Positions 54,669 to 54,947 of a stretch of DNA of 64,000 nt are shown here, piece after piece. The DNA lies in the NCBI RefSeq assembly GCF_045037415.1, contig NZ_CP173438.1; one strand, written 5' to 3'. This stretch comes from Escherichia coli. Its GTDB lineage: Bacteria; Pseudomonadota; Gammaproteobacteria; Enterobacterales; Enterobacteriaceae. How positions within the stretch are numbered: position 1 is the first letter of the stretch; each line of letters begins with the position of its first letter. Position numbers and translations under genes: made by a program. The notes beneath the pieces were generated by a model. That model was not told the DNA's origin. It made no database searches and was given only the letters and a program-made list of their open reading frames with translations.

Positions 54669-54947
54669 CGGTGGTGACCTTAATATTTGCGATCAAATAA
54701 TTGCAGATAAATGGGATCATATATCCCGATTTGATAGACACAAAGGAATCATTAAGTCCGAATATTACTCATGTGATGTCACTGAAAATGATTGCGCGCT
54801 GACGTAACGCTTGAGGTGCTGCATAAAGCAGCGACTAAATTGAGATTTTCCTGAATTAGTGAGCTGATCCGCAGCAATATTTTGTTTATCCTGTATTTTC
54901 AGAGGGAATGGAGTGTAACGCTCTGTATTAACAAGGAGAGCATTAAA

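What the first reader, a model, noticed from the sequence alone, without database searches (positions are those of the whole stretch)
54669..54947. murQP operon lacks the divergent repressor gene murR; only 279 bp separate murQ and ucpA
In K-12, as I recall, the RpiR/SIS-family repressor murR (yfeT, ~285 aa) is divergently transcribed from murQ and lies between murQ and ucpA. Here that interval is 279 bp with no ORF of that size on either strand. If murR is truly absent, murQP regulation must differ (constitutive, CRP-only, or a regulator encoded elsewhere). A TGTGA-containing stretch at about 54765..54785 could be a CRP half-site but is not a clean consensus.
Basis: partly seen in the sequence, partly recalled or inferred. 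Interest (0 to 1): 0.45.

Follow-up and report, generated by a model that had tools for sequence, protein, structure and literature searches.

The report
Natural murR repressor deletion, E. coli B2
This E. coli carries an old 0.87-kb deletion, shared by about a fifth of sequenced E. coli (the B2 group) and by Escherichia albertii, that removed the repressor gene murR and half of the neighbouring CRP site, so its cell-wall-sugar (MurNAc) genes murQP are probably expressed without their usual induction switch.

Summary
murQ (53772-54668, -) and ucpA (54948-55739, +) are 279 bp apart. In K-12-type E. coli the gap is 1149 bp and holds murR.

The difference is a real deletion, not an ancestral absence. 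The last ~18 codons of murR survive as a decayed remnant (about 54772-54819). Other Escherichia lineages, Citrobacter, Salmonella, Rahnella and Vibrio keep murR near murQ, directly beside it except in S. arizonae and Rahnella.

The same junction occurs in 1046 of 5426 complete E. coli genomes, including ST131, E2348/69, NRG857C and APEC O1, which I know as phylogroup B2. murR occurs in 4379 others. None of the 1046 has murR-like DNA anywhere. The E. albertii type strain carries the same junction, without the extra 10-bp loss seen here.

The deletion (860 + 10 bp) also removed the promoter-distal half of the conserved CRP site. A hybrid, TGTGAtgtcacTGAAA, now sits at exactly the old position. 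By itself it matches no better than chance.

murQ and murP are intact and under purifying selection (dN/dS 0.02-0.07).

Most likely murQP runs without MurR, so it is no longer MurNAc-inducible. Catabolite control is uncertain and expression was not measured. This is an ordinary but clean lineage-wide regulatory variant of modest interest.

The parts
52344..53768 (-). murP, PTS EIIBC for N-acetylmuramic acid; intact, 474 aa
   Evidence: RefSeq annotation of an identical locus; 99.2% aa identity to K-12 MurP; dN/dS 0.02-0.03.
53772..54668 (-). murQ, MurNAc-6-phosphate etherase; intact, 298 aa
   Evidence: 96.3% aa identity to K-12 MurQ; dN/dS 0.05-0.07.
54669..54758 (.). Retained murQ-proximal 90 bp of the 163-bp murQ-murR intergenic region. 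It differs from the K-12 type at 11 positions, and all 11 are shared with E. albertii.
   Evidence: Alignments. Window coordinate = K-12-like locus L002 coordinate + 50699.
54674..54701 (+). Promoter-like site GTGACC-16-AATAAT pointing away from murQ. Candidate orphaned murR promoter, identical in K-12 and now pointing towards ucpA.
   Evidence: the same site is found in the window and in K-12. Assigning it to PmurR is an inference from my recollection of the abstract of Jaeger & Mayer 2008 (face-to-face promoters).
54712..54724 (.). Conserved box 1 (TGGAATCATATAT in all murR+ loci, TGGGATCATATAT here). Candidate MurR operator half. On the - strand it contains the candidate murQ -10, TATGAT (54721..54716).
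   Evidence: conserved in Escherichia and Citrobacter. The operator and -10 assignments are inferred, not shown.
54738..54743 (-). Candidate murQ -35, TTGTGT, 16 nt upstream of TATGAT. The same hexamer occurs in Citrobacter; K-12 has TTAAGC.
   Evidence: alignment, read directly. Inferred; below the scan threshold.
54744..54759 (.). Conserved box 2 (AGGAATCATTGAGTCT in murR+ Escherichia, GAGAATCATTGAGTCT in Citrobacter; AGGAATCATTAAGTCC here). Candidate second MurR operator.
54759..54771 (.). 13 nt of uncertain parentage at the deletion junction. The breakpoints lie somewhere between here and the TGTG at 54772-54775.
   Evidence: About 50% match to either parent.
54772..54787 (.). Hybrid CRP-like site TGTGAtgtcacTGAAA (8 of 10 core positions). 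It lies at the same offset from boxes 1 and 2 as the K-12 CRP site TGTGAagagcgTCATA.
   Evidence: Offset computed from L002 4073-4088 + 50699. The match is not better than chance on its own (17 such sites in the window against 24.7 expected).
54772..54819 (+). Decayed remnant of the last ~18 codons of murR (V268-K285). It carries a further 10-bp deletion, and the original stop codon is mutated.
   Evidence: ATGTGATGTCACTGAAAATGATT against murR ATGTGGAGTCATTGAAAATGATT.
54830..54947 (+). ucpA upstream region, 100% identical to K-12 and untouched by the deletion
54948..55739 (+). ucpA, SDR oxidoreductase
52255..52341 (-). Remnant of the 5' end of pbp4b (yfeW). The rest of the gene is deleted downstream of murP.

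Best explanation
The interval is the scar of one ancient deletion. The deletion is 860 bp, and this lineage lost a further 10 bp. Its ends lie in or next to a TGTG in the CRP site of the murQ-murR control region and a TGTG at murR codons D267-V268. It removed murR, the distal 73 bp of the 163-bp control region and the promoter-distal half of the CRP site.

The allele is fixed in a large E. coli lineage (1046 of 5426 complete genomes, including well-known phylogroup B2 strains). It is shared, with the same junction, with E. albertii.

With no MurR in the cell, the murQP promoter can no longer be repressed or induced by MurNAc-6-phosphate. Its candidate core is still present: -10 TATGAT and -35 TTGTGT. 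murQP is therefore predicted to be expressed constitutively at a level set by the core promoter. cAMP-CRP activation is either lost or weakly retained through the hybrid site TGTGA-N6-TGAAA, which the deletion left at the original CRP position.

Shown here: the deletion, its distribution, the remnant, the loss of the CRP half-site, and the integrity and constraint of murQ and murP.

Inferred: promoter positions, the operator identity of the two conserved boxes, and the expression outcome.
For: -: anatomy of the interval and the alignment to K-12.
- Gap arithmetic: 1149 bp in K-12, 289 bp in E. albertii, 279 bp here.
- 4379 genomes have murR and 1046 have this junction, which sums to 5425 of 5426. 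Sensitive blastn finds no murR-like DNA in the junction genomes.
- E. albertii has the same junction. All other Escherichia lineages found, Citrobacter, S. arizonae, Rahnella and Vibrio keep murR upstream of murQ; in S. arizonae and Rahnella it lies about 2 kb away rather than directly adjacent.
- the CRP site GAGTGTGA..TCA and the two GGAATCAT boxes are conserved in all murR+ loci, and a murR 3' remnant is present here.
- murQ dN/dS is 0.05-0.07 and murP 0.02-0.03, with both ORFs intact.
- (PMC9177960, citing Jaeger & Mayer 2008): MurR binds two neighbouring repeats in the intergenic region and represses murQP and itself. MurNAc-6-P is the inducer. A murR deletion mutant grows faster on MurNAc.
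- (PMC3141248): murP is listed as regulated by CRP and MurR.
Against: - No expression data exist for any murR-less strain.
- I could not read Jaeger & Mayer 2008, so the murQ start site, the operators and the CRP-site position in K-12 are placed from conservation and from my memory of the abstract.
- As I recall that abstract, K-12 murQ transcription depends on CRP. Loss of half the site could therefore leave the promoter weak rather than 'derepressed'.
- The hybrid CRP-like site is no better than chance as a sequence match.
- In the E. albertii strains found, murP is interrupted by IS1. The same allele can therefore coexist with decay of the operon.
- dN/dS was measured on branches that include murR+ lineages, not only the post-deletion branch.
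- RpiR-family paralogues elsewhere in the genome could not be examined.
Confidence: 0.7

Rival explanations
1. Without an intact CRP site the murQ promoter is nearly dead. On this view murQP in this lineage is a poorly expressed operon on its way to loss, not a constitutively active one.
For: - The promoter-distal CRP half-site is replaced (TCATA to TGAAA).
- Neither candidate core promoter reaches the scan threshold.
- In E. albertii with the same allele, murP is cut by IS1.
- pbp4b next door is also deleted.
Against: - murQ and murP are full-length in the three murR-less E. coli loci that were read (window, SK1144, Z1323); the other 1046 junction genomes were not checked for ORF integrity.
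- dN/dS is 0.02-0.07 at dS 0.16-0.29 against other E. coli.
- As I recall, MurQ is needed for recycling of anhydro-MurNAc, for which low constitutive expression suffices (Jaeger & Mayer 2008 abstract, recalled).
Confidence: 0.15
2. murQP is still substrate-regulated by a different regulator encoded elsewhere, for example another RpiR/SIS-family protein or a global regulator such as FNR or NagC.
For: - Box 2's GGAATCAT core is intact, box 1's has one substitution (GGGATCAT), and the interval shows almost no variation among the murR-less E. coli genomes.
- In Shigella flexneri murQP shows FNR-dependent anaerobic induction.
- An FNR-like TTGATagacACAAA lies at 54731-54744 (read).
Against: - No MurR-like protein is encoded in the 64-kb window.
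- The 1046 genomes hold no murR-like DNA.
- No candidate regulator was identified.
- The near-invariance within B2 may simply reflect the youth of the lineage.
Confidence: 0.1
3. murR was never there: the short interval is ancestral and K-12-type strains gained murR. Alternatively, the gap is an assembly error.
For: None beyond the bare absence of the gene.
Against: - A murR 3' remnant is present in the interval.
- murR lies upstream of murQ in distant outgroups, down to Vibrio and Rahnella.
- The junction is identical or near-identical in 1046 independent complete genomes.
Confidence: 0.01

Closest known systems
E. coli K-12 murR-murQP(-pbp4b) MurNAc catabolism and recycling locus (Jaeger & Mayer 2008; Zhang et al. 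2022, PMC9177960)
   Same: - Same chromosomal site between yfeX and ucpA-cysP.
- Orthologous murQ and murP (96% and 99% aa identity).
- Same murQ-proximal 90 bp of control region, with both conserved GGAATCAT boxes and the candidate -10.
   Different: - No murR.
- No intact CRP site.
- No pbp4b.
- 11 substitutions in the retained control region.
- Regulation by MurNAc-6-P through MurR is impossible.
Laboratory murR deletion mutant of K-12 (Jaeger & Mayer 2008; PMC9177960)
   Same: The repressor is absent. The expected phenotype is derepressed murQP and faster growth on MurNAc.
   Different: The laboratory mutants presumably keep the whole intergenic region with the CRP site (their construction was not checked). 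The natural allele lost the distal 73 bp and half of the site, so its expression level cannot be read off from the laboratory mutant.
E. albertii ucpA-murQ locus
   Same: Same deletion junction. Same 11 control-region variants. 100% identity to the window over the first 93 aligned nt.
   Different: - It keeps the 10 bp that this lineage lost.
- It has TGTGG rather than TGTGA.
- The remnant has diverged by roughly 20-30%.
- murP is interrupted by IS1 in the strains found.

Membership tests
murQP MurNAc catabolic operon | MurNAc-6-P etherase MurQ (SIS-domain protein) encoded first | tested here: met
   298 aa, 96.3% identical to K-12 MurQ.
murQP MurNAc catabolic operon | PTS EIIBC MurP encoded immediately downstream | tested here: met
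   474 aa, 99.2% identical to K-12 MurP, 3 nt after murQ.
MurR-regulated murQP (K-12 type) | Divergent RpiR/SIS-family repressor gene murR next to murQ | tested here: not met
   only an approximately 48-nt decayed 3' remnant remains. No copy exists elsewhere in genomes with this junction.
MurR-regulated murQP (K-12 type) | Two adjacent MurR operator repeats in the control region | tested here: inconclusive
   both conserved boxes are retained, but with 1 and 2 substitutions at positions invariant in murR+ loci. The true operator coordinates come from a paper I could not read.
CRP-activated murQ promoter | CRP site TGTGA-N6-TCAyA upstream of the murQ promoter | tested here: not met
   the K-12 site TGTGAagagcgTCATA is replaced by TGTGAtgtcacTGAAA. 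Both C positions of the second half-site are lost; matches of this quality are at chance frequency.
CRP-activated murQ promoter | cAMP-CRP dependence of transcription | not testable with these tools
   Needs a promoter fusion or RNA measurements in crp+ and crp- backgrounds.
K-12-type extended locus murQ-murP-pbp4b | pbp4b (yfeW) directly downstream of murP | tested here: not met
   only about 85 nt of its 5' end remain; 4148 of 5426 genomes hold 80% or more of the gene.

The most novel reading that the evidence does not exclude
The deletion did not simply break regulation; it rewired it. By recombining at the TGTG of the CRP site, it discarded substrate induction. It left a hybrid CRP site at the original position, which this lineage later improved from TGTGG to TGTGA. 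murQP then became a catabolite-controlled but MurNAc-independent operon.

This allele moved between E. albertii and the ancestor of E. coli B2 by homologous recombination. Always-on MurNAc scavenging or recycling contributes to the colonisation success of B2/ExPEC strains.
Probability: 0.12. Interest if true: 0.55.

Novelty: new variant of a known kind. Interest (0 to 1): 0.33.

Why it matters
MurR, CRP and murQP form the textbook switch for MurNAc use and part of peptidoglycan recycling, and it was worked out only in K-12. About a fifth of complete E. coli genomes carry this allele, including pandemic ExPEC clones such as ST131 and APEC O1, EPEC E2348/69 and a Nissle-like strain. These, and E. 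albertii, lack the repressor and half of the CRP site.

K-12 regulation therefore cannot be transferred to them. These strains are predicted to use MurNAc without the long induction lag that, as I recall from Jaeger & Mayer 2008, K-12 shows. That prediction is simple to test.

The shared junction in two species is also a clean marker for inter-species recombination or an old polymorphism. The finding reveals no new mechanism.

Tried and rejected
- I tried to read Jaeger & Mayer 2008 (PMC2566201) for the mapped start sites, operators and CRP site. It is not held. The supplements of PMC9177960 and PMC3141248 are not held either. The V. cholerae murQP paper says nothing on E. coli.
- Literature searches for an explicit description of murR loss in B2, UPEC or ST131 found nothing relevant. 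One search failed on a two-letter term.
- I first read the 11 substitutions in the retained control region as decay after loss of MurR. I now reject that as proof. All 11 are shared with E. albertii. Two other murR-less strains, a Nissle-like one and Z1323CEC0015, carry K-12-type sequence there. The substitutions are therefore haplotype-linked and are shuffled by recombination.
- I considered the CRP-like site significant because it sits at exactly the old CRP position. I reject that as independent evidence. A breakpoint at or beside the TGTG puts it there automatically, and 8-of-10 matches are at chance frequency.
- An alternative promoter model places the -10 at AATGAT in box 2 and the -35 at TTCACA overlapping the CRP site. 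It would put CRP at about -38.5, which conflicts with the 'class I' site I recall from the abstract. I kept it only as an alternative.
- A weak MurR tblastn hit at 24456-24659 lies inside aegA and is spurious.
- Rfam finds no RNA family in 54500-55100.
- The 33-aa ORF (54701-54802) that ends in the murR remnant frame was not pursued. Nothing supports it.

Full report
**1. The observation**

murQ occupies 53772-54668 on the minus strand and murP 52344-53768. ucpA starts at 54948 on the plus strand and is followed by cysP, cysU, cysW, cysA and cysM. The interval 54669-54947 is 279 bp and contains no ORF longer than 89 aa.

The window is E. coli: 53700-56000 is 100% identical to strain SK1144 and others. 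In a K-12-type genome the order is murP(-), murQ(-), murR(+), ucpA(+), with a murQ-ucpA gap of 1149 bp.

**2. It is a deletion with a scar**

Alignment to K-12-type and other murR+ E. coli gives four results:
- The window keeps the 90 bp next to murQ (54669-54758) out of the 163-bp murQ-murR intergenic region.
- It lacks the remaining 73 bp and almost all of murR.
- Homology resumes at ATGTGATGTCACTGAAAATGATT. This matches murR codons D267-I275 (ATGTGGAGTCATTGAAAATGATT) and continues, decayed, to the former stop codon (about 54772-54819).
- From about 54830 to ucpA the sequence is 100% identical to K-12.

The gap lengths fit one 860-bp deletion plus a later 10-bp loss. The gaps are 1149 bp in K-12, 289 bp in E. 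albertii and 279 bp here.

Both parents have TGTG at the junction: the left half of the CRP site (TGTGAagagcgTCATA) and GA-TGTG-GAG in murR. A microhomology-mediated deletion is therefore plausible. The 13 nt at 54759-54771 match either parent only about 50%, so the breakpoints can only be placed within about 17 nt.

**3. Distribution**

- The K-12 murR gene is found in 4379 of 5426 complete E. coli genomes by megablast.
- Sensitive blastn finds it in exactly the same 4379.
- The 141-nt stretch across the junction is found, full-length, in 1046 genomes. The two counts sum to 5425.
- The junction genomes include O25b:H4-ST131, EPEC E2348/69, AIEC NRG857C and APEC O1:K1:H7. I know these as phylogroup B2. 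Phylogroups were not computed here.

This is therefore a single inherited allele fixed in a major lineage, with no displaced murR copy.

**4. Outgroups**

I used MurQ as a probe against one genome per species, then tblastn for MurR, UcpA, MurP and PBP4B.
- murR lies directly beside murQ in the other Escherichia lineages found (including E. whittamii, Escherichia sp. E1V33 and MOD1-EC7003), in two of the three Citrobacter genomes and in Vibrio.
- In S. arizonae, one Citrobacter and Rahnella, murR is upstream of murQ but about 2 kb away.
- murR is absent next to murQ in the E. albertii type strain.

E. albertii has the same junction and the same 11 variants in the retained control region. It is 100% identical to the window over the first 93 aligned nt. 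Its murR remnant is less decayed: it keeps the 10 bp and reads TGTGG.

Several E. albertii assemblies sharing that MurQ protein show the same ucpA-289 bp-murQ arrangement, and in them murP is cut by IS1.

A sliding comparison shows the window is closer to E. albertii than to K-12 only around 54601-54800. Two other murR-less E. coli, a Nissle-like strain and Z1323CEC0015, carry K-12-type sequence on one or both sides of the same junction. The allele has therefore been moved and trimmed by homologous recombination. Whether E. albertii and B2 share it by transfer or by old polymorphism is open.

**5. What the deletion did to the control region**

PMC9177960 summarises Jaeger & Mayer 2008 as follows:
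- MurR binds two neighbouring repeats in the intergenic region.
- It represses murQP and itself.
- It is released by MurNAc-6-P.
- A murR mutant grows faster on MurNAc.

PMC3141248 lists CRP and MurR as regulators of murP and says several murQ promoters have been reported. My memory of the 2008 abstract adds that murQ needs cAMP-CRP at a class I site, and that the murQ and murR promoters face each other. I could not read that paper.

Comparison of murR+ loci from Escherichia and Citrobacter shows four conserved blocks:
- TGGAATCATATAT (box 1)
- AGGAATCATTGAGTCT (box 2)
- GAGTGTGA-N6-TCA (the CRP site)
- TATGCTGC

The two GGAATCAT boxes lie 33 bp apart. I take them as the MurR operators, which is an inference.

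On the murQ strand, box 1 contains TATGAT. If that is the -10, the start is near 54708 and the K-12 CRP site is centred at about -71.5, which is a class I position. A promoter-like GTGACC-16-AATAAT on the other strand (54674-54701) is identical in K-12. It fits a murR promoter facing the murQ promoter.

In the window:
- Both boxes, TATGAT and a -35-like TTGTGT (also present in Citrobacter) are retained.
- The CRP site's second half is replaced, giving TGTGAtgtcacTGAAA at 54772-54787.
- This hybrid sits at exactly the old offset because of where the deletion ended.
- As a match it is unremarkable: 17 sites with at most 2 core mismatches occur in the window against 24.7 expected by chance.
- The fifth base is G in murR+ strains and in E. 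albertii but A here. That improves the half-site, but one change in a decaying remnant is not evidence of selection.

**6. Are murQ and murP still in use?**

Both ORFs are full-length. Against other E. coli and Escherichia lineages, dN/dS is 0.05-0.07 for murQ and 0.02-0.03 for murP; dS against the other E. coli is 0.16-0.29. This argues that they are maintained. The compared branches are not purely post-deletion, however, and E. albertii shows that murP can be lost on this background.

**7. Most likely working**

With no MurR in the cell, murQP cannot be repressed or induced by MurNAc-6-P. I expect constitutive transcription from the retained core promoter. Its level is uncertain because CRP activation is lost or weakened. 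The orphaned murR-type promoter now points at ucpA, about 240 nt away, and may still interfere with the murQ promoter; this is speculation.

The rivals are a nearly silent operon and control by an unidentified regulator. Neither is excluded. FNR-dependent anaerobic induction of murQP has been reported in Shigella. An FNR-like TTGATagacACAAA lies at 54731-54744.

**8. Comparison and novelty**

This is the known murQP locus without its regulator, without an intact CRP site and without pbp4b. I found no paper in the held library that describes the natural loss, although the allele is visible in more than a thousand annotated genomes. I class it as a new (undescribed) variant of a known system. 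It is real, clean and testable, but it is not a new mechanism.

**9. Checks that found nothing**

- No MurR-like protein is encoded in the window.
- No Rfam family matches the interval.

Noticed in passing
window 52182-52343 (remnant about 52255-52341): pbp4b (yfeW), which follows murP in K-12, is deleted here except for about 85 nt of its 5' end. Only 4148 of 5426 complete E. coli genomes hold 80% or more of the gene. This deletion is therefore wider than, and separate from, the murR deletion.
   Followed up: partly
L011 3712-4000; L036-L041: E. albertii has the same murR deletion junction as E. coli B2. In the strains found, murP is interrupted by an IS1 element after about 61 codons.
   Followed up: partly
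L044 (EcN_Sk) 372-692; L003 (Z1323CEC0015) 3451-3771: Some murR-less E. coli are mosaics: the junction is the same, but the flanks on one or both sides are K-12-type. Recombination is therefore shuffling this small region.
   Followed up: partly
window 54830-54947: The 118 nt upstream of ucpA are identical in B2, K-12, strain 961 and Escherichia sp. MOD1-EC7003. They differ at only a handful of positions in the other Escherichia lineages (about 1-6, counted by eye from the alignment), although neighbouring sequence diverges by 5-15%. No Rfam match. This looks like an uncharacterised, strongly constrained ucpA leader or promoter.
   Followed up: no
window 54731-54744: FNR-like TTGATagacACAAA (8 of 10 core positions; K-12 has TTGACaggcTTAAA, 7 of 10) in the murQ control region. 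FNR-dependent murQP induction is reported in Shigella flexneri.
   Followed up: no
window 54713-54727: The A-to-G change in box 1 creates a perfect 5-bp inverted repeat, GGGAT-CATAT-ATCCC, which the terminator scan flagged on the minus strand. It would lie over the candidate murQ -10 and just upstream of the inferred start. Its significance is unknown.
   Followed up: no
window 55740-55896: The ucpA-cysP spacer is 157 bp here against 303 bp in K-12. The roughly 146-bp indel was not examined.
   Followed up: no
window 53772-54668: murQ is unusually polymorphic and mosaic. Its dS against other E. coli is 0.26-0.29, compared with 0.12 for ucpA against K-12 and 0.16-0.17 for murP against K-12 and Z1323. 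Per-100-nt identity swings between 85% and 98% among Escherichia lineages.
   Followed up: no
L013 2083-4001; L021 2080-4001: In Salmonella enterica subsp. arizonae and one Citrobacter, about 1.9 kb lies between murR and murQ. This suggests an inserted gene in the control region.
   Followed up: no
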